64,000 bases of DNA from a virus. Taxonomy: Duplodnaviria > Caudoviricetes. Each line of letters opens with the position of its first letter. Position 1 is the stretch's first letter. The notes beneath the pieces were generated by a model. The model was not told where the DNA came from, did not search any database, and saw only the letters and a list, made by a program, of their open reading frames with translations. Shown here in pieces: positions 20,244-53,415 of this stretch. The stretch lies in the IMG/VR virus record IMGVR_UViG_3300042988_001200, one strand, 5' to 3'. Position numbers and translations under genes: made by a program.

Positions 20244-20492
20244 TTAATAACTAGGCATCTCTATATCTAAGGAGTTATCCTCCATTAGTTTCTGTTGTAA
20301 TATAGCTCTTTTCCTCTCTATACTCTTAGCTTTAGTTAAAGTTCTTAGTTTCCTTTTTCTTTTATCTCTTTTATTCTCAAAGTAATCCTTTAGTTTACTA
20401 GTTTCTAATAATCTTTCATTATAAACCTTTTTGTTAAATCTATATAATAAAGAATCAATGGTTTCATCAGGATTCTTTCTTACTTGACACAT
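20244..20492 (-). CDS. rpsU: Ribosomal protein bS21
   Basis: ETIDSLLYRFNKKV...YFENKRDKRKRK. Confidence 0.8.
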   Translation of the reverse strand: MCQVRKNPDETIDSLLYRFNKKVYNERLLETSKLKDYFENKRDKRKRKLRTLTKAKSIERKRAILQQKLMEDNSLDIEMPSY

Positions 20493-20871: not shown

Positions 20872-23130
20872 CTAATTGGATGAATGATATATATGTATTT
20901 CTTTATCTTTTATGGTTATATATAAGGTAGATATATCTAAATGAGTAAGAATATAATCTACAAGTAGGTCTTTAATAGAATTAACTATCCTTCCAATTTC
21001 TCTTGCTCCATAATTAAGGTTAATTTTACATGTTATTAAATGGGTGATAACCGAGGGTTCTATCTCTAATTTATACTTAATAGCCTCCTTTAACTCTTCT
21101 AATCTAAGAGCCATAATAGAAGATAAGGATATTAGATTTAATGGATTAGCCGGTAGAATCTCATCTATTCTATTAAGGAACTCTGGTGTAAAGTATTCTT
21201 TAAGAACACTTAACTTATTAGAACTAATATTGGAAGTAGATAGTTCAAACCCCAAAGATGCCGAGTTAGAATAAGAACTCCCTATATTAGTAGTTAAAAA
21301 GATGTATGAATTGTTAAAGTATATCTTTCTACCTACAGAATCTGTAACAAACCCCTCATCTAGTATTTGTAATAGAACATTATAAATAGAGGGATGGGCC
21401 TTTTCTATCTCATCAAATAGGATGATACAGAAGGGGTAGTTCTTTACATTAGAGAAGATAAAAGATTGGTTTTCATAACCAATATACCCAGGAGGAGAGC
21501 CTATAAGTTTAGATATAGAGTGAGATTCCTGAAACTCTGACATATCTATTTGGATAAACTGAGCAGGGTTAGATAGTAATAACTTAGATAATTCTTTAAC
21601 TATATAAGTTTTACCTACCCCTGTATTACCACATAGTAGGAATGAGCCTCTAGGCTTAAGTTTGGAATAAAGGAAACTTCTTTTAATACAAGAGGAGATT
21701 TTATTAATAATATCCTCTTGACCTACTACTCTTTTCCTTAGATTAGACTCTATATCCTTAAACTTATTGTAGGTATCTAAAGGGTTTTTATTAATAGGAA
21801 CTTGAGTTATAGATTCTATAGTTTCATAAACTAAGGACTCATCTAACTCTGGAAGATTAACTATAAACTTCTGTACCTCTTCATACTTATCTTCTTCAAT
21901 AAGAGAATAATACTCCTTTAAATGTTTATTAGGGGTTTTATTCTTTATCTTTAACTTACTACCAGCCTCATCTAGTACATCTATAGCTTTATCTGGATAG
22001 TTCCTATTTGTTATATATTGACTGCTATTAACTATTACCTTAAGGATAGAGTCAGGTACTATCATTCCATGATATCTCTCGTACTTAGTTCTATTTCCTC
22101 TAAGAATCTCTAGAGTCTCTTCCTTACTACATTCTTCTAGAGGGATAATATTAAACCTTCTAGTAAAGGCTTTATCCTTTTCTATATTTAATTTAAACTC
22201 CCTATAGGTAGTAGCACCTATACATTTTAATTCACCTCTACTAAGGGCAGGCTTAAGTAGATTAGATAAATCTAAGGAACCCTCATAGTTACCTAGACCT
22301 ACAATATTATGAATCTCATCTATAAAGAGAATAACGCTAGGATTAGACTTACAGTATTTAATAAGTAGAGCTACTCTCTCTTCTAACTCCCCTCTAAACT
22401 TAGTACCAGATATTAAAGCTCCAGTATCTAAAGATACAATTCTAGTATTGTCTAAAGGAGGGTATATTCCAGATACTACTAATTGAGCTAATCCCTCTAC
22501 TAACTGAGTCTTACCAAAGCCAGCTTCCCCTAGTATAAGAATATTACTCTTAGTCTTTCTTAATAAAGATTTAACTATAGAGTCTAGTTCTTTAGTTCTA
22601 CCTATTAGGGGATCTAGTTCATTCTTCTCAGCTTTTAGAGTTAAATCAATACAGAAGTCTTCAATAGATGTAGGAATAGAGCTAGATACAGTAGTAACTA
22701 ATAAGCCTTCTTGTAGAAGAGTAACAATCTGTTCTTCTATAGCCTTAATATCTACATTAGAGGTAAAGGCTTTTTCAAAGAAGGATAGATTATTATTACT
22801 TTTAAGTACATGAACAAGGGCTAAGAATATAGACTCAGGTTCTATATGCTCTAGATTAAATCTGTTACTTATTTCCTCTGCTTGTTTTAGACATATATGT
22901 ATATACTTAGAATATTGATTAGGGAAAGGATTAAAATTTATTCCTGGAATATTAATTAAATAATTAGTATCTAAGTTATTCTTCTTTAAAATGCTAGATA
23001 TTTTAGAAGACCCTTCTTGTAATAATCCTATAAGTAAATGGTTAAAGCTAACAGAGGTGTTTTGACTATTAGCAATACTCTTAGCTATACTAAGAACCTT
23101 ATCAGAACCTTGAGATAGATTTAGAGACAT
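20872..23130 (-). CDS. clpC: ClpC-type Hsp100 AAA+ ATPase (start revised to ATG 23130)
   Basis: Two Clp-N repeats, LDPLIGR, GEAGFGKT, LFIDEIH, PALSRGE, YPDKAIDVLDEA, GNTGVGKT, IDMSEFQE, GSPPGYIGY, LFDEIEKAHP, SLGF loop. Confidence 0.9.
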   Translation of the reverse strand: MSLNLSQGSDKVLSIAKSIANSQNTSVSFNHLLIGLLQEGSSKISSILKKNNLDTNYLINIPGINFNPFPNQYSKYIHICLKQAEEISNRFNLEHIEPESIFLALVHVLKSNNNLSFFEKAFTSNVDIKAIEEQIVTLLQEGLLVTTVSSSIPTSIEDFCIDLTLKAEKNELDPLIGRTKELDSIVKSLLRKTKSNILILGEAGFGKTQLVEGLAQLVVSGIYPPLDNTRIVSLDTGALISGTKFRGELEERVALLIKYCKSNPSVILFIDEIHNIVGLGNYEGSLDLSNLLKPALSRGELKCIGATTYREFKLNIEKDKAFTRRFNIIPLEECSKEETLEILRGNRTKYERYHGMIVPDSILKVIVNSSQYITNRNYPDKAIDVLDEAGSKLKIKNKTPNKHLKEYYSLIEEDKYEEVQKFIVNLPELDESLVYETIESITQVPINKNPLDTYNKFKDIESNLRKRVVGQEDIINKISSCIKRSFLYSKLKPRGSFLLCGNTGVGKTYIVKELSKLLLSNPAQFIQIDMSEFQESHSISKLIGSPPGYIGYENQSFIFSNVKNYPFCIILFDEIEKAHPSIYNVLLQILDEGFVTDSVGRKIYFNNSYIFLTTNIGSSYSNSASLGFELSTSNISSNKLSVLKEYFTPEFLNRIDEILPANPLNLISLSSIMALRLEELKEAIKYKLEIEPSVITHLITCKINLNYGAREIGRIVNSIKDLLVDYILTHLDISTLYITIKDKEIHIYHSSN

Positions 23131-25178
23131 AGGGATAATAAATCTTCTGGATAGAAACAACTAGATAAACTTAGATTAACCCCATATAGTTCATCACATA
23201 AAGGGATTAGTAATATAGAACCTGGCTTATGAATAGTATTAGTTATTTCATTTATTACTATTTTAATATTAAAACTATTAAGCACCCTTATGATTTCTGG
23301 ATTGTTTATTTCTAATATGCAATATAAGAGTTGAGACATTACAGCTATCTCTATTATGAAATTTCTATTATTAGCCTCATGGTTAGAAGTAATTATCTTA
23401 ATGAAATCCACTTTAGATATATTTATAGAATTATTTATATTAGTAAAATCTTCTATATCTATATCTTGGTTATTTATAAACTCATCTATATGCTCATATA
23501 TAGATATAAGGGATAAAAGCCCTTCACAGATAGACTCTAACTCTTTGTATGAGTCTATATAGAGATTCTGTGTAGCTCTAGTTAAAGCTACATATATTAG
23601 ATTTAGCTCCTGAATATGGTCATTATATTTATTAGTTGGTCTAAATAGAATATCTGCTGAAGGAACTATATACCAGACATTCTTTGCTTCTGCTCCTTTA
23701 GCTCTATGGATAGAACTAAGAATAATAGCATTCTTACTTGGTTTACATAATTCCTCTACATATTTCTCTATATAGGAGACATCTATGTTCTCTTTTATGT
23801 ATAAATATATATACTCTATTAAACTATTACAACAATTAAAGTAGTCTATTAAAGTATCTAAACTAATAGTAAATAGTTCTTTAGAACTTGTATTATTCTG
23901 TTTTATACAATCGTGATTATACTTATAGAAACCACTTAATAAGTTCTTATACTCATTTAAAGAGTACGTTTTATAGTCTTGTAACTTGTTATACTCTAAA
24001 GCTAGTCTAAAGAATCTACTAATAGAGATACTTAAATCTGTACATCTTATATATATCTTCTTACCTTTTGATAATAGTTCTAAGCCATATTCTACTAATG
24101 GATAGTTATATCTACTAACAATAAGGTCTTTACTCTTTACTTTATTAACTATAAATTCTTTATTAAAGCCTTTTACTACACTCCCTTGTTTAGGGTTAGC
24201 GGGTAGCATTTCTATCTTAACTAGTTCTTTAACTAGTTCTATATGACTATCTGGACATCTATAACAATATGAAAGGGGGAGTTGAATAGTATTAAAGCTC
24301 TCTTTCATAATCTTCCAAATAGAAGGTTCAGCTCCTGCAAATGCAAATATAGACTGGTTATAGTCTCCTAATAATATGATTTGACTACCATTATTAGTAA
24401 ATTTCTTATATATCTCTAACATTAATAGAGAGGAATCCTGAGCTTCATCTACTATTAGATAGTCTGTGTGAGTTGGTTCTAGGTTTAAATCAATAGAAAG
24501 TTCTAGTAATTGAGTGAAGTCTAGGATTTTATTATTAGCTTGAGTCCTTCTTAATTGACTAATATATCTAATACATTTACATATAAATTTAATATAAGGA
24601 TTTATATATTCTAACTTTAAGCCATATTTATATATAACAAAGTAGATGTTTTCATAGGTTATAGTTAATCTATTTATTCTTAGATAGTTATCTATTTGTT
24701 TAGTTGCTTGTTTAAATATATTAATATGAACATTAATATCCTTTCTTTCTTGTTTAGTTATATTAGAAGAAGGGTCTATTCTTTCCTTTGTATATATATA
24801 ACTATAAAGTTCTTGATTTAAAGATTCATCTTTAAGGAAGGAATTAACGAACTCTGAAGTCCTATCTTGAATATCTATATCACCTAATACCCTTTTTAAT
24901 AACCCATAACATAGACTATGGATAGTATTTATCCTTACATTATTTAATCCTTTAATCCTTGTATCCTCTTTTAACTGTTCAGCTATATGTTTATTAAAAG
25001 CTAGAATCTGTATCTTTTTACCGCCTAAAGCTCCACATAGACCTATGATTTGAGTAGTTTTACCTACTCCTGCATTAGCATTGACTTGAATATTATTGGT
25101 TAAAGCCTCTTGAAATATAGTTAATTGATGACTATTCCAATTAATAGCAGTTAGATAATTAGAAGTCCAATTATTCAT
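23121..25178 (-). CDS. UvrD/Rep-like superfamily 1 helicase with C-terminal extension
   Basis: NAGVGKTT, LAFN, IVDEAQD, GDYNQSIFAF, SIHRAKGAE, YVALTRA. Confidence 0.88.
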   Translation of the reverse strand: MNNWTSNYLTAINWNSHQLTIFQEALTNNIQVNANAGVGKTTQIIGLCGALGGKKIQILAFNKHIAEQLKEDTRIKGLNNVRINTIHSLCYGLLKRVLGDIDIQDRTSEFVNSFLKDESLNQELYSYIYTKERIDPSSNITKQERKDINVHINIFKQATKQIDNYLRINRLTITYENIYFVIYKYGLKLEYINPYIKFICKCIRYISQLRRTQANNKILDFTQLLELSIDLNLEPTHTDYLIVDEAQDSSLLMLEIYKKFTNNGSQIILLGDYNQSIFAFAGAEPSIWKIMKESFNTIQLPLSYCYRCPDSHIELVKELVKIEMLPANPKQGSVVKGFNKEFIVNKVKSKDLIVSRYNYPLVEYGLELLSKGKKIYIRCTDLSISISRFFRLALEYNKLQDYKTYSLNEYKNLLSGFYKYNHDCIKQNNTSSKELFTISLDTLIDYFNCCNSLIEYIYLYIKENIDVSYIEKYVEELCKPSKNAIILSSIHRAKGAEAKNVWYIVPSADILFRPTNKYNDHIQELNLIYVALTRATQNLYIDSYKELESICEGLLSLISIYEHIDEFINNQDIDIEDFTNINNSINISKVDFIKIITSNHEANNRNFIIEIAVMSQLLYCILEINNPEIIRVLNSFNIKIVINEITNTIHKPGSILLIPLCDELYGVNLSLSSCFYPEDLLSLCL

Positions 25179-42155: not shown

Positions 42156-42308
42156 TTAATGAACAATTATTAGCTTAATAAGATTACCAAATGGACCAGA
42201 TAGAGTTACTAATTCTAAGAATAGTAGACTAATAAACCCTATCATTGCTAATCTTCCATTCACTAATTCAGCAGTATTATCAAATATAAATCTAGGTTTA
42301 ATCTTCAT
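42156..42308 (-). CDS. hli: High-light-inducible protein (HliP); not in ORF track
   Basis: MKIKPRFIFDNTAELVNGRLAMIGFISLLFLELVTLSGPFGNLIKLIIVH contains the chlorophyll-binding ExxNGRxAMxG motif. Confidence 0.92.
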   Translation of the reverse strand: MKIKPRFIFDNTAELVNGRLAMIGFISLLFLELVTLSGPFGNLIKLIIVH

Positions 42309-42443: not shown

Positions 42444-42872
42444 CTAAACTCCTAGTTTACAGATAATAGAGGAAGGAATCTGGTAATTAATAAGAGTCTT
42501 TACAGTATTCCAATTACCCCCTCCTAGACCACAACCTATTTTATAAGGGATATAAACTTTAAGATTTAACTCTTGGGCTATTTCATTAACTAACCCTAAT
42601 CCTTTAGATAGAGCTTTATAGTCTGTATGTATCCCTGTATTACCATAGGTATTTTGCCCAATTAGAGATACTATTACTAGGCTCTCTATTCTAGTAGTAA
42701 TAATATCTCCCATTTCTAGATTACCTACTTGTGATTTATAATCTATTTCTACTTGAGGATATTTAGTTTTAATGGATAAAGCTAGACCTTTACCCATTAC
42801 TCCTTGTTTATTAACCTGATGGACGATGATTCCTTCTTTAATGTCTAAGATATTCTTCTCTATGATTTCCAT
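42444..42872 (-). CDS. Macrodomain protein (ADP-ribose processing)
   Basis: NIL...IVHQVN..GVMGKGLA..IK.KYP...PYKIGCGLGGGNW. Confidence 0.88.
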   Translation of the reverse strand: MEIIEKNILDIKEGIIVHQVNKQGVMGKGLALSIKTKYPQVEIDYKSQVGNLEMGDIITTRIESLVIVSLIGQNTYGNTGIHTDYKALSKGLGLVNEIAQELNLKVYIPYKIGCGLGGGNWNTVKTLINYQIPSSIICKLGV

Positions 42873-43204
42873 TAAAGACCTTTTATTAATTGGATATAAC
42901 CTTTATTTAATTGAATATAGTTGTTTAGAATTGTATTTAGTAACTCTATAAGTTGCTCTTTAGAGGCTCTATCTATACAACTTTCAAAGGTTTCTTTTAT
43001 ATCTTTATCTTCAGTATTCTCATAGAATTTACCTATACTCTTAACAAAGTATATTATCTTTAGCTTCCTATTCTCTCTATAATAGTTCTCTAAAGTCTCA
43101 ATTACTAATTGTTTTAAATCCTCTCTATTAAGATTTCTGGCCTTTAAATTATATGAAGCAATCTTAAACTGCTCTTCTAAAGTGAGATTTAAGGTAGATT
43201 CCAT
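42872..43204 (-). CDS. nblA: NblA-like phycobilisome degradation adaptor, tandem two-unit fusion
   Basis: Unit 1 LTLEEQFKIASY...LNREDLKQLVI; unit 2 F...IDRASKEQLIELL..I..YIQLIKG. Confidence 0.7.
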   Translation of the reverse strand: MESTLNLTLEEQFKIASYNLKARNLNREDLKQLVIETLENYYRENRKLKIIYFVKSIGKFYENTEDKDIKETFESCIDRASKEQLIELLNTILNNYIQLNKGYIQLIKGL

Positions 43205-50856: not shown

Positions 50857-53415
50857 TTAAGTCTCTAATTGTTTACATCTAGAACAGAGTTTAGTAGATT
50901 GATTATTAACAATAGTCTCATATAAATCCACCTTATTCCAACATCTAGGACATTTATTCTTCTCGCTTAAGGAGATTGAAAGTTCATTAATAGAGATAGA
51001 AAATAACAATTCACTTACTCCTAGATAGCAACTGATAAGTTCTTTAGAGAGGTTATCTAGAGATAAAGTCTGTACTAAATCAATAGGGAACTCTACCTTT
51101 AAATCTAGTTTAGACTTAGCCTCTTTATTAGTTTTATACCTTTCAAAGGTAAGATTCACTTCATCTCTAGTGGGGTTAAGAGTATTAAAATCATAGACTT
51201 GTTCTAGAAGATTAAATTCTACAGGGTTCTCTAGAAGGTTAGAGTCTAGATAAATACTAGTTTCATTTACTAGACTAGGACAAATGGGTTCTAATACTTT
51301 AATAAAACCCTGGAGTAAATAGAAAAGAACATATTGACATCCTACCCTTTCATTACTATTAATGCCATCAATATATAATCTATCCTTAGAAAGATTACTA
51401 TAAGAAGACATAATCCTCTTTAATTCTTGTATTGAATTGATAACTAAATGAAAGTTATAGTAGTTATACTCCTCATTACAGGACTTTAATTCTTCATTAA
51501 ACTGTTGAATAATGAAGTTATCTAGAGGAGTATAGAAACTAGAAGGATAATTAGAAGGTTTAAAGTCTTTAATATTACCCAGAATGAATTTAATAATGTT
51601 CCTAAAGTCATTATATAGAGACACCATTTGAGTTTCTACTGTCTCTGATAAGATAATATCTTTAGTGAAGTCTTGGTTTAGAACTAGTAATCTTAAGATA
51701 TCAGAGGAATAAGTCTTTAATAAATCTAGGGGATTAGTAACATTACCCTTAGATTTACTCATCTTATTACCCCTTTCATCTAGAGTAAATCCATGTACTA
51801 GTAGTTTAGAGAAGGGAATCTGTTCCTTTAGTGCATAGGTGATAATTAAAGATGATTGGAACCATCCTCTATATTGGTCTACTCCTTCAATAAAGATAGT
51901 TTCTAATGGAATAGATTCCTCTTTAGTTTGATATAAATAGACACATCCACTGTCAAACCATACATCTAAGACATCCTCTCCCTTATGACAATGGGGAATA
52001 TTAGTAAACTCTTCTACTGGTAAATCCCACCATAGGTCCATATAATCCTCTACTAAGTCTTTATACTCATTAATCTTAGATAGAAAACTATCAATAACCA
52101 TATGGACTTTACCCTTACTATCAATGACATAAGGAATGGGAATACCCCACTTCCTTTGTCTAGAAATACACCATTCCTCTCTAGAAGAGATAGTGTTGGA
52201 TAGAGCTTTCTTAGCTTGTAAAGGATGAAACTCTACATTCTCTAACTCTTTAATTACAGATTCCTTAATTGAATTGATATCTAAGAACCATTGAGCTGTG
52301 GGTCTAATGTATACAGGATTCTCGGTTCTCTCATCAAAGAAGGTTTTAATTACTTGTTTAGAACAATGCAAAATAGAATCATTATTAAGGATAATAAACT
52401 CTGATAATTCCTCTGGAGTATATTTAAAGTCTTCATATTCAATATAACCCCCTGTTTTATGGAATAAATCCTTTACTTCTAGACCATTAACTAAGCCTAA
52501 ATTATAATCATCAAACCCATGAGAGGGGTTAATATGAACAATACTTGTACCTACAGAGTCTGTAACTAGACTATTAGCCTCAATAACCTTACAAATATCT
52601 CCATTTAAATTAGTATAAGTATGGTATTTAGATAATAGTTCTGACCCCTTAACCTTCTCTAAAAGAATAGAATCCCCAAATAAATTATTAAATTCCTCAT
52701 AGAATTTAATATTAGAGATGTAATGAAGGTTCCCTCTAGAGTAAATATAATACTCAATCTCAGAGTTAATAGCTAGAGCTTTATTTCCTAATAAAGTCCA
52801 AGGAGTAGTAGTCCAAGCAATATAATAGATATTATCATTGGCTGTACTATTAACTTTGAACTTTACATATGCAGTATTAACTTCTACTTCCTTATAGATA
52901 ATCTCTGACTCAGCTAGTGCTGTCCTATTCTTAATACTCCAATAAGTAGGCTTATTACCTCTGTAGATTAATTCTTTATTGTATAACTCTTGGAGAATAC
53001 TTAGTTCATATAACTGGAACTCATTATCTAAAGTTCTATAAGTATTACTATAGTTAATCCCTAGTTTAGTTAAGGATTCCTTATGCTGCTCTACAGTTTT
53101 TAAAGCTAGTTGTCTACAGTTATTTCTAGTCTCTAAAGGATTAGCACTCCTCTTTACCTTTAACTCAATGGGTAATCCATGACAATCCCATCCAGCAATA
53201 AACTCTTTATATAAACTGTCCTGACCATTCCTTCTATTAATTACATCCTTAATAGTTTTATTAAGAAGATGACCCATATGAAGATTACCATTAGCATATG
53301 GGGGTCCATCAATGATTAATACAGACCCCTTTTTATTAGATTGGATAGAAGGGTTAAAATCATGCCCTTTATAATAACTAGGAAACTGAGTTTCTGGTTT
53401 TAGAATATTAAACAT
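50857..53415 (-). CDS. ileS: Isoleucyl-tRNA synthetase (type 1)
   Basis: DGPPYANG.LHMGH, GWDCHGLPIE, WTTTPWTL, WCISRQRKWG, DVWFDSG, EGVDQYRGWFQSS, KMSKS, C-terminal CPRCW...CSRC. Confidence 0.96.
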   Translation of the reverse strand: MFNILKPETQFPSYYKGHDFNPSIQSNKKGSVLIIDGPPYANGNLHMGHLLNKTIKDVINRRNGQDSLYKEFIAGWDCHGLPIELKVKRSANPLETRNNCRQLALKTVEQHKESLTKLGINYSNTYRTLDNEFQLYELSILQELYNKELIYRGNKPTYWSIKNRTALAESEIIYKEVEVNTAYVKFKVNSTANDNIYYIAWTTTPWTLLGNKALAINSEIEYYIYSRGNLHYISNIKFYEEFNNLFGDSILLEKVKGSELLSKYHTYTNLNGDICKVIEANSLVTDSVGTSIVHINPSHGFDDYNLGLVNGLEVKDLFHKTGGYIEYEDFKYTPEELSEFIILNNDSILHCSKQVIKTFFDERTENPVYIRPTAQWFLDINSIKESVIKELENVEFHPLQAKKALSNTISSREEWCISRQRKWGIPIPYVIDSKGKVHMVIDSFLSKINEYKDLVEDYMDLWWDLPVEEFTNIPHCHKGEDVLDVWFDSGCVYLYQTKEESIPLETIFIEGVDQYRGWFQSSLIITYALKEQIPFSKLLVHGFTLDERGNKMSKSKGNVTNPLDLLKTYSSDILRLLVLNQDFTKDIILSETVETQMVSLYNDFRNIIKFILGNIKDFKPSNYPSSFYTPLDNFIIQQFNEELKSCNEEYNYYNFHLVINSIQELKRIMSSYSNLSKDRLYIDGINSNERVGCQYVLFYLLQGFIKVLEPICPSLVNETSIYLDSNLLENPVEFNLLEQVYDFNTLNPTRDEVNLTFERYKTNKEAKSKLDLKVEFPIDLVQTLSLDNLSKELISCYLGVSELLFSISINELSISLSEKNKCPRCWNKVDLYETIVNNQSTKLCSRCKQLET

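What the first reader, a model, noticed from the sequence alone, without database searches (positions are those of the whole stretch)
20872..23130. Phage ClpC with ClpP-docking loop could complete an NblA-ClpC phycobilisome-degradation pathway
Seen: two Clp-N repeats, two intact AAA modules, a short middle domain and SLGF where ClpA/ClpC carry the [LIV]G[FL] ClpP-binding loop. No clpP was recognised in the window. Known: NblA delivers phycobiliproteins to ClpC-ClpP. Inference: the phage supplies both adaptor and unfoldase and borrows host ClpP/ClpR to redirect proteolysis.
Basis: partly seen in the sequence, partly recalled or inferred. Interest (0 to 1): 0.72.

Follow-up and report, generated by a model that had tools for sequence, protein, structure and literature searches.

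The report
Cyanophage ClpC-like unfoldase, short middle domain
A large uncultured phage of cyanobacteria carries an intact but very divergent ClpC/ClpA-type protein-unfolding motor that keeps the loop used to dock onto a ClpP protease, but nothing tested here ties it to the phage's own NblA antenna-degradation adaptor.

Summary
Window 20872-23130 (-) encodes a 752-aa two-ring Clp/Hsp100 ATPase with every catalytic motif intact and a diverged two-repeat N-domain. Its middle domain is about half the ClpC length. An LGF tripeptide (626-628) sits at the ClpP-docking position of ClpA/ClpC.

No clpP lies in the window or in about 42 kb of the only close relative. The rest of the 204-kb genome could not be read.

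It is not a ClpB: true ClpBs lack the loop and have a 134-143-aa middle domain, and the AU test gave p 0.033 and 0.054. Its place among ClpA, cellular ClpC and a large phage-borne ClpC-like clade is unresolved.

The NblA part of the reading has no support:
- The relative keeps ClpC but has a KTSC protein in the NblA slot.
- 0 of 44 ClpC-like viral contigs carry NblA.
- None of 3 cultured NblA cyanophages carries a Clp ATPase.
- The basic R-motif that cyanobacterial ClpC needs for ClpP3/R is not evident.

Verdict: a new variant of a known kind (PHROG 4871), probably ClpP-coupled. Partner and substrates are unknown.

The scan noted this same stretch once more in an overlapping window, not on other DNA.

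The parts
20872..23130 (-). Whole gene: 752-aa class-I Clp/Hsp100 ATPase (stop codon 20872-20874)
   Evidence: ORF and translation. Pfam architecture. PHROG 4871 over the full length, E 6e-178. Best PDB sequence and fold matches are ClpC and ClpC-ClpP complexes.
22681..23130 (-). N-domain, residues 1-150: two diverged Clp_N repeats
   Evidence: Pfam Clp_N on repeat 1 only. Eight helices at residues 7-140 of the AF2 model, pLDDT about 75-86. The profile hits ClpC N-domains at E 4.5e-9. Only 48% identical to the relative.
21946..22668 (-). First AAA+ module (D1), residues 155-395. Walker A at 22507-22530, Walker B at 22315-22320.
   Evidence: Invariant G201..K207 T208, D271 E272, K244/R246 pore loop, R324 R325. 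76% identical to the relative.
21841..21945 (-). Shortened middle domain, residues 396-430: two short helices (402-412, 416-423) with Y416 at the tip
   Evidence: Interval lengths. AF2 secondary structure. Alignment with S. aureus ClpC puts Y416 at F436; about 33 aa are missing, including the positions of R443/D444. No UVR Pfam hit.
20875..21840 (-). Second AAA+ module (D2) with small domain, residues 431-752. Walker A at 21607-21630, Walker B at 21409-21414.
   Evidence: Pfam AAA_2 at E 5e-54 and ClpB_D2-small. Invariant G501..K507, D573 E574, GYIG pore loop, N615, R654, R710.
21247..21255 (-). L626-G627-F628, the presumed ClpP-docking tripeptide, inside the flexible loop 618-634 (21229-21279)
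   Evidence: Aligned with IGL of ClpA and AGF of S. aureus ClpC; absent from four true ClpBs. G627 and F628 invariant in 48 ClpC-like proteins. SLGFE is conserved in the relative although the flanks differ and carry a 4-aa indel. pLDDT below 50 at residues 621-633.
23121..25178 (-). Upstream UvrD-type helicase gene; its stop overlaps the ClpC start by 10 nt
   Evidence: Pfam UvrD-helicase at E 1e-20. The same overlap occurs in the relative phage.
42872..43204 (-). The 110-aa NblA-like gene named in the finding. It is context, not shown to belong to the ClpC system.
   Evidence: Pfam NblA at 30.7 bits, on residues 6-39 only. The syntenic slot in the relative holds a KTSC protein.

Best explanation
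This is a functional phage gene for a hexameric two-ring AAA+ unfoldase of the ClpP-docking (ClpC/ClpA) type.

Shown:
- The ATPase and pore-loop motifs are complete.
- An LGF tripeptide is conserved in a flexible loop at the ClpP-docking position.
- The N-domain is diverged.
- The middle domain is about half the ClpC length.

Inferred:
- The hexamer threads proteins into a ClpP-type peptidase ring.
- That ring is the host's, unless the unread part of the phage genome encodes one.
- Because the coiled-coil middle domain that holds cellular ClpC in its resting state is much shortened, the enzyme may need less adaptor activation than cellular ClpC.

Substrates are unknown. A role in dismantling host proteins during infection is plausible. 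A specific hand-over from the phage NblA is not supported by anything tested here.
For: - Architecture and motifs.
- The best sequence and fold matches are ClpC and ClpC-ClpP complexes 6em8, 9a66, 9rai, 9gi1.
- The LGF aligns with the ClpA/ClpC loops and is missing in E. coli, Acinetobacter, S. aureus and Listeria ClpB.
- SLGFE is kept in the 66%-identical relative while the surrounding loop varies.
- The loop is predicted flexible.
- Grouping with ClpB costs 13.8-14.6 lnL, AU p 0.033 and 0.054.
- Full-length match to PHROG 4871 'ATP-dependent protease'.
- Viral ClpC-like proteins that may be its sister group travel with a canonical ClpP: 12 of 44 records, and 2 of 2 that are at least 90% complete.
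- In S. aureus ClpC, deleting or mutating the M-domain gives adaptor-independent, ClpP-dependent activity (PMC5699869).
Against: - No ClpP partner is identified. None lies in the window, in 3 kb upstream, or in about 42 kb of the relative. The host is unknown.
- The stretch after LGF is not basic: 2 of 16 residues, no Arg. Cyanobacterial ClpC needs a basic R-motif there for ClpP3/R (PMC7966870; bioRxiv 10.64898/2026.05.10.723991).
- The lineage sits on a very long branch (1.7-2.5 changes per site) and its placement is unstable.
- Some ClpB-length proteins also carry IGF, so the tripeptide alone does not prove protease coupling.
- The middle-domain stub keeps an aromatic residue (Y416) at the F436 position, so loss of regulation is only an inference.
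Confidence: 0.6

Rival explanations
1. The phage NblA is the adaptor of the phage ClpC. Together they use the host ClpP/ClpR core to degrade phycobilisomes, so the phage supplies both adaptor and unfoldase.
For: - Both genes are in one genome, 20 kb apart on the same strand.
- NblA is known to bind cellular ClpC through a motif near its N-terminus (PMC4103541; PMC7966870).
- The Pfam NblA match covers that N-terminal part.
- The host is probably a cyanobacterium: Hli-like ORF and CP12.
Against: - The relative keeps ClpC but has a KTSC gene in the NblA slot, and no NblA hit on about 40 kb.
- 0 of 44 ClpC-like viral records have NblA.
- Ma-LMM01, MaMV-DC and PaV-LD have NblA but no Clp ATPase.
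- Viral NblA alone causes phycobilisome breakdown when expressed in a host (PMC12695635).
- No R-motif-like basic stretch that would explain docking on ClpP3/R.
- The N-domain is only weakly like ClpC N-domains.
Confidence: 0.15
2. It works with a phage-encoded ClpP that lies outside the window, as in the jumbo-phage ClpC-like clade, and so forms a fully viral protease.
For: - Holding the phage pair together with the viral ClpC-like clade is as good as the best tree (dlnL 1.17, AU p 0.43). The quick trees place it there with SH-aLRT 96-98.
- That clade carries canonical ClpP 20-170 kb away from its ClpC-like gene.
- About 137 kb of the 204-kb genome was not readable.
Against: - None of the first-stage notes returned for this genome, including a search for 'ClpP protease', mentions a ClpP. 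This is weak evidence.
- The structural relatives Ma-LMM01 and MaAM05 have no ClpP.
- No ClpP in 64 kb + 3 kb here or in 42 kb of the relative.
Confidence: 0.2
3. It is a ClpP-independent chaperone or remodeller. It would be part of the phage's protein-folding set (GroES, GroEL-like, small heat-shock protein), or a remodeller of replication complexes coupled to the adjacent helicase. The LGF would be an inherited leftover.
For:
- The gene is translationally coupled to a UvrD-type helicase in both phages.
- From my own knowledge: cyanobacterial ClpC has intrinsic chaperone activity (Andersson et al. 2006).
Against: - SLGFE is strictly kept in a loop whose flanks diverge and carry an indel, which points to selection on the docking tripeptide.
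- There is no ClpB-type long M-domain for Hsp70 cooperation.
Confidence: 0.2

Closest known systems
Cellular ClpC (S. aureus / B. subtilis ClpC, PDB 6em8, 3j3t, 9rai; M. tuberculosis ClpC1)
   Same: - Order N-domain, D1, middle domain, D2.
- All ATPase motifs.
- xGF loop at the same position (M. tuberculosis ClpC1 also uses LGF, from my own knowledge).
- Best sequence and fold matches.
   Different: - Only 35-43% identity.
- The middle domain is about 33 aa shorter and has no UVR Pfam hit.
- The N-domain is much diverged.
- It does not nest inside the cellular ClpC clades.
Cyanobacterial/plastid ClpC, partner of ClpP3/R and receptor of NblA
   Same: Same general type, and the ClpP-docking tripeptide is present. 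The likely host is a cyanobacterium.
   Different: - The basic eight-residue R-motif just after the IGF loop, needed for ClpP3/R binding (PMC7966870), is not evident. The phage has ELSTSNISSNKLSVLK, with no Arg.
- No named cyanobacterial protein is among the 120 best hits.
- A cyanobacterial reference sequence could not be fetched, so there was no residue-by-residue comparison.
Phage-borne ClpC-like ATPases of IMG/VR jumbo-phage contigs (for example P0012, P0054, P0065, P0119; loci L027-L106)
   Same: - Encoded by large phages.
- xGF loop present.
- A possible sister group.
- Two variants (L072, L089) also have Clp_N domains.
   Different: - Most lack an N-domain.
- They keep a full 73-aa ClpC-type middle domain.
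- They are at most 43% identical to the query.
- They co-occur with a phage ClpP.
- None of the 44 records searched has NblA.
ClpA and the ClpA-like proteins of jumbo phages (E. coli ClpA; Xanthomonas phage XaC1 gp311; Yersinia phage fHe-Yen9-04 g228); PHROG 4871
   Same: - Similar length.
- Short D1-D2 connection.
- xG[LFM] loop.
- A phage-encoded precedent already annotated as 'ATP-dependent protease'.
   Different: - ClpA has a 15-17-aa linker with no helical stub.
- The query lies outside the 100/98-supported ClpA clade.
- 31-35% identity.
ClpB/Hsp104 disaggregases
   Same: Two AAA+ rings and similar profile scores (NCBIfam ClpB 560 bits, against ClpA 549; both far below their cut-offs).
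   Different: - ClpB has a 134-143-aa middle domain and no ClpP loop.
- Forcing the pair into the ClpB clade costs 13.8-14.6 lnL, AU p 0.033 and 0.054.

Membership tests
Class-I Clp/Hsp100 ATPases | Two AAA+ modules, each with Walker A, Walker B, pore loop, Arg finger and sensor residues | tested here: met
   G201-T208, D271/E272, K244-F-R246, R324/R325; G501-T508, D573/E574, G548-Y-I-G551, N615, R654, R710.
ClpP-coupled unfoldases (ClpA/ClpC/ClpE/ClpX) | [LIV]-G-[FL] tripeptide in a flexible loop of the last AAA+ module | tested here: met
   L626-G627-F628 aligns with IGL of ClpA and AGF of ClpC. It is invariant in 48 ClpC-like proteins, conserved in the relative, and the loop has pLDDT below 50.
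ClpP-coupled unfoldases (ClpA/ClpC/ClpE/ClpX) | Physical docking on a ClpP tetradecamer and ClpP-dependent degradation | not testable with these tools
   The host and its ClpP are unknown, and no partner ClpP was found in the readable DNA.
ClpC | Coiled-coil middle domain of ClpC length with a UVR motif | tested here: not met
   The interval is 41 aa against 73-74 in 29 ClpC-like proteins. No PF02151 or PF23569 hit. Only a two-helix stub at residues 402-423.
ClpC | Two-repeat Clp_N N-terminal domain | tested here: met
   Pfam at 24 bits on repeat 1, eight helices in the model, profile hits to ClpC N-domains at E 4.5e-9. Strongly diverged.
ClpC | Branches within the ClpC clade | tested here: inconclusive
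   Long stem of 1.7-2.5. The quick trees place it with viral ClpC-like proteins (SH-aLRT 96-98). The careful tree leaves it alone at a weakly supported deep node.
Cyanobacterial-type ClpC (ClpP3/R partner) | Basic eight-residue R-motif just downstream of the IGF loop (Tryggvesson 2012, as described in PMC7966870 and bioRxiv 10.64898/2026.05.10.723991) | tested here: not met
   The 16 residues after LGF hold 2 Lys and no Arg. Caveat: judged from the papers' description; no cyanobacterial reference sequence was available.
ClpA | No middle domain (15-17-aa linker) and membership of the ClpA clade | tested here: not met
   41-aa interval with two helices. Outside the 100/98-supported ClpA clade.
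ClpB/Hsp104 | Long (about 120-aa) coiled-coil middle domain, no ClpP loop, ClpB clade | tested here: not met
   (134-143 aa against 41; no xGF in four true ClpBs). AU p 0.033 and 0.054.
PHROG 4871 (phage 'ATP-dependent protease' ATPases) | Full-length profile match | tested here: met
   E 6.3e-178, residues 8-747 on profile positions 11-754 of 764.
NblA-ClpC-ClpP phycobilisome degradation pathway | NblA binds this ClpC | not testable with these tools
   Needs a bench pull-down. No computational result bears on it.
NblA-ClpC-ClpP phycobilisome degradation pathway | NblA and ClpC are kept together across related phages | tested here: not met
   The relative has ClpC but a KTSC protein in the NblA slot. 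0/44 ClpC-like viral records have NblA. 0/3 NblA cyanophages have a Clp ATPase.

The most novel reading that the evidence does not exclude
The phage makes a naturally de-repressed ClpC. Its regulatory coiled coil is cut to a stub, so it would assemble on the host's ClpP without host adaptors and drive bulk proteolysis of host proteins for phage nutrition. The phage's own NblA, and perhaps its ubiquitin-like tagging cassette, would steer it to chosen targets such as phycobilisomes. This would be a virus-supplied unfoldase-plus-adaptor takeover of a bacterial protease, functionally akin to what cyclomarin-type antibiotics or M-domain mutations do to ClpC.
Probability: 0.12. Interest if true: 0.75.

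Novelty: new variant of a known kind. Interest (0 to 1): 0.42.

Why it matters
Cyanophages are known to bring NblA and to rely on the host ClpC-ClpP machine. A cyanophage that also brings its own unfoldase would show that viruses can replace the regulated, adaptor-gated step of bacterial proteolysis, not merely redirect it.

The half-length middle domain is a natural experiment on the element that keeps ClpC switched off.

The work also exposed a large clade of big-phage contigs that carry a ClpC-like ATPase together with a canonical ClpP. I found no paper describing it. It suggests that virus-owned Clp proteases are common.

As it stands, the gene is a divergent member of an annotated phage family, and its partner and targets are untested.

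Tried and rejected
- **Co-fold of the ClpC N-domain (1-152) with the 110-aa NblA (complex prediction).** Verdict 'no answer', score 0.00, controls not run. This is neither for nor against binding.
- **Whole-genome ClpP search.** No genome is held for the window, and the loci are not in held records.
- **Single-protein scans.** Viral contigs found nothing. Genome contigs found only distant hits at 37% identity or less.
- **tblastn of the tandem NblA against phage records.** No match.
- **Neighbouring helicase and sigma factor.** They gave no close cultured relative.
- **Cyanobacterial ClpC reference for the R-motif.** I could not obtain one. The control genomes of the genome search return no loci, Tryggvesson 2012 is not held, and no cyanobacterial-type sequence was among the local hits.
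- **Promoter/terminator scan.** Uninformative, with fewer promoter-like sites than in shuffles.
- **Rejected idea: the ClpC F436 region is simply deleted.** The alignment keeps an aromatic residue, Y416, at that position.
- **Rejected idea: ClpB identity**.

Full report
**What is there.** The minus-strand ORF 20872-23160 has its likely ATG at 23130, giving 752 aa. The ATG overlaps the stop of an upstream UvrD-type helicase gene by 10 nt. Pfam finds Clp_N (24-57, weak), AAA (197-309), AAA_lid_9 (335-415), AAA_2 (492-658, E 5e-54) and ClpB_D2-small (669-729). NCBIfam scores ClpB (560 bits) and ClpA (549 bits) about equally, and both are far below their cut-offs. The best solved relatives by sequence are S. 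aureus and B. subtilis ClpC, E about 1e-131.

An AF2 model (pLDDT 83) shows three things:
- an eight-helix N-domain;
- two short helices (402-412, 416-423) where ClpC has its coiled coil;
- a low-confidence, so probably flexible, loop at 621-633.

Its best fold matches are ClpC-ClpP complexes (9a66, 9rai, 9gi1), with ClpB and ClpA close behind.

**Motifs.** In alignments with ClpA, ClpB, ClpC and phage homologues, all catalytic residues are present:
- Walker A/B of both rings;
- pore loops (KFR, GYIG);
- Arg fingers;
- sensor-1 and sensor-2.

L626-G627-F628 aligns with IGL of E. coli ClpA and AGF of S. aureus ClpC. G627 and F628 are invariant in 48 ClpC-like proteins. Four authentic ClpBs lack the tripeptide. 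The D1-to-D2 interval is 41 aa here, against 15-17 in ClpA, 73-74 in ClpC and 134-143 in ClpB. Aligned with S. aureus ClpC, the stub keeps an aromatic residue (Y416) at the F436 position. It lacks about 33 residues, including the positions of R443/D444. In S. aureus ClpC, M-domain point mutants and the deletion give adaptor-independent activity and ClpP-dependent toxicity (PMC5699869). Reduced self-repression is therefore a reasonable inference, but it is untested.

**Relatives and context.** Among 5.8 billion protein clusters, only one close relative exists: P0003, 66% identical. Everything else is at most 43% identical. P0003 lies on 42.7- and 46.2-kb metagenomic contigs with the same gene order: helicase, ClpC, 86 aa, S21, and further on GroES and a sigma factor. 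Identity between the two proteins is 76% in the ATPase cores, 48% in the N-domain and 31% in the middle stub. SLGFE is conserved inside an otherwise variable loop with a 4-aa indel. The protein matches PHROG 4871 'ATP-dependent protease' over its full length. ClpA-like genes are annotated in jumbo phages.

Both phages carry a 50-aa Hli-like gene. The window's phage has NblA and, just upstream of the window, CP12. A cyanobacterial host is therefore likely. Earlier notes of this scan relate its structural genes to Ma-LMM01.

**Phylogeny.**
- Quick IQ-TREE runs put the phage pair, on a stem 2.0-2.5 long, with N-domain-less ClpC-like proteins of about 675 aa (SH-aLRT 96-98).
- Those proteins are a large IMG/VR clade of big-phage contigs. 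76 of the 79 ClpC-like ORFs recovered from the 80 best loci belong to it, and two variants have Clp_N domains.
- The careful search found a tree only 3 lnL better, in which the pair stands alone at a weakly supported deep node.
- AU tests: holding the pair with the viral clade costs 1.17 lnL (p 0.43). Holding it with ClpB costs 13.8-14.6 lnL (p 0.033 and 0.054).

So it is not a ClpB. It lies outside the well-supported ClpA and ClpB clades. Its exact origin is unresolved.

**ClpP.** A Pfam sweep of 82 window ORFs shows no CLP_protease. A custom ClpP profile found nothing in six frames of the window, the 3-kb upstream extension, or about 42 kb of the relative (best E 3.5; positive controls 1e-120). 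Ma-LMM01 and MaAM05 have no ClpP. By contrast, 12 of 44 viral ClpC-like records carry a canonical ClpP (E 1e-51 to 1e-60), including 2 of 2 that are at least 90% complete. It lies tens of kilobases from the ATPase gene. The remaining roughly 137 kb of this genome could not be read. 'Borrows host ClpP' is therefore plausible but open.

**NblA link.** NblA binds cellular ClpC through its N-terminal motif (PMC4103541; PMC7966870). Against a dedicated pairing here:
- The relative has a 93-aa KTSC protein in the exact NblA slot, between the Macro gene and the next ORF, and no NblA hit in its gene tables.
- 0 of 44 ClpC-like viral records have NblA.
- Ma-LMM01, MaMV-DC and PaV-LD have NblA but no AAA_2 module.
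- Viral NblA works when expressed alone in a host (PMC12695635).

Cyanobacterial ClpC needs a basic R-motif just after the IGF loop to bind ClpP3/R, and it binds E. coli ClpP when that motif is removed (PMC7966870; bioRxiv 10.64898/2026.05.10.723991). The phage sequence after LGF has two Lys and no Arg in 16 residues. If it uses a host core, that core may not be ClpP3/R. This comparison rests on the papers' description, not on an aligned cyanobacterial sequence.

**Verdict.** The ClpC-type, ClpP-docking reading is supported by sequence, structure and conservation. The NblA-ClpC pathway and the choice of host ClpP/R remain conjecture with some evidence against. This is a new, very divergent variant (half-length middle domain) of a known kind of phage-encoded Clp ATPase.

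Noticed in passing
IMG/VR loci L027-L106 (for example L031 = G005, 286 kb; L060 = G023, 309 kb; L072 = G031, 369 kb); ClpP loci L107-L112: A large clade of big-phage contigs carries a 652-688-aa ClpC-like ATPase with no N-domain, a full-length ClpC middle domain and an I/VGF loop. At least 588 viral contigs have a Clp/Hsp100 relative, and this clade supplied 76 of the 79 ORFs recovered from the 80 best loci. Many of these contigs also encode a canonical ClpP elsewhere in the genome (12/44; 2/2 of the near-complete ones). I found no paper on it.
   Followed up: partly
Proteins P0009, P0057, P0060, P0078 (868-909 aa, metagenomic): Proteins with a ClpB-length middle domain (134-160 aa) that branch with ClpB yet carry an IGF tripeptide in the ClpP-loop position. 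True ClpBs lack it.
   Followed up: no
window 42156-42308 (-); relative L117:7778-7930: A 50-aa ORF with the high-light-inducible protein motif (ELVNGRLAMxGF). It was below the 70-aa ORF cut-off I first used. It is conserved in the relative phage and lies next to the Macro-domain gene. It is a typical cyanophage auxiliary gene.
   Followed up: partly
window 42872-43204 (-) versus L117:7050-7331: The NblA gene occupies a swappable slot. The relative phage has an unrelated 93-aa KTSC-domain gene (PF13619, E 3e-10) at the same position between the same neighbours.
   Followed up: yes
L113:13758-13943 (about 2.4 kb upstream of window position 1): A 61-aa CP12 gene (PF02672), a Calvin-cycle regulator known from cyanophages. 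It lies just outside the window, next to a MoxR-type AAA protein and a DUF2201/vWA pair.
   Followed up: no
window 50857-53415 (-): An 852-aa class-I aminoacyl-tRNA synthetase (tRNA-synt_1, E 9e-96) whose best tblastn hits are isoleucyl-tRNA synthetases at about 30% identity. Unusual for a phage of this size.
   Followed up: no
window 20244-20492 (-): Ribosomal protein S21 homologue (26 bits, just under Pfam's cut-off) two genes downstream of ClpC, conserved in the relative phage.
   Followed up: no
phage-collection records OR844991.1, OR844998.1, OR848478.1, OR848812.1, CAKLQH020000034/43: Several records labelled as phages (UNVERIFIED_ORG 'Staphylococcus phage SA 1306 Kay', 'Listeria phage LM 4-14-1', 'Acinetobacter phage MD-2021a') are bacterial chromosome contigs carrying the host's own clpC, clpB or clpA. 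They inflate counts of 'phage' Clp ATPases.
   Followed up: partly
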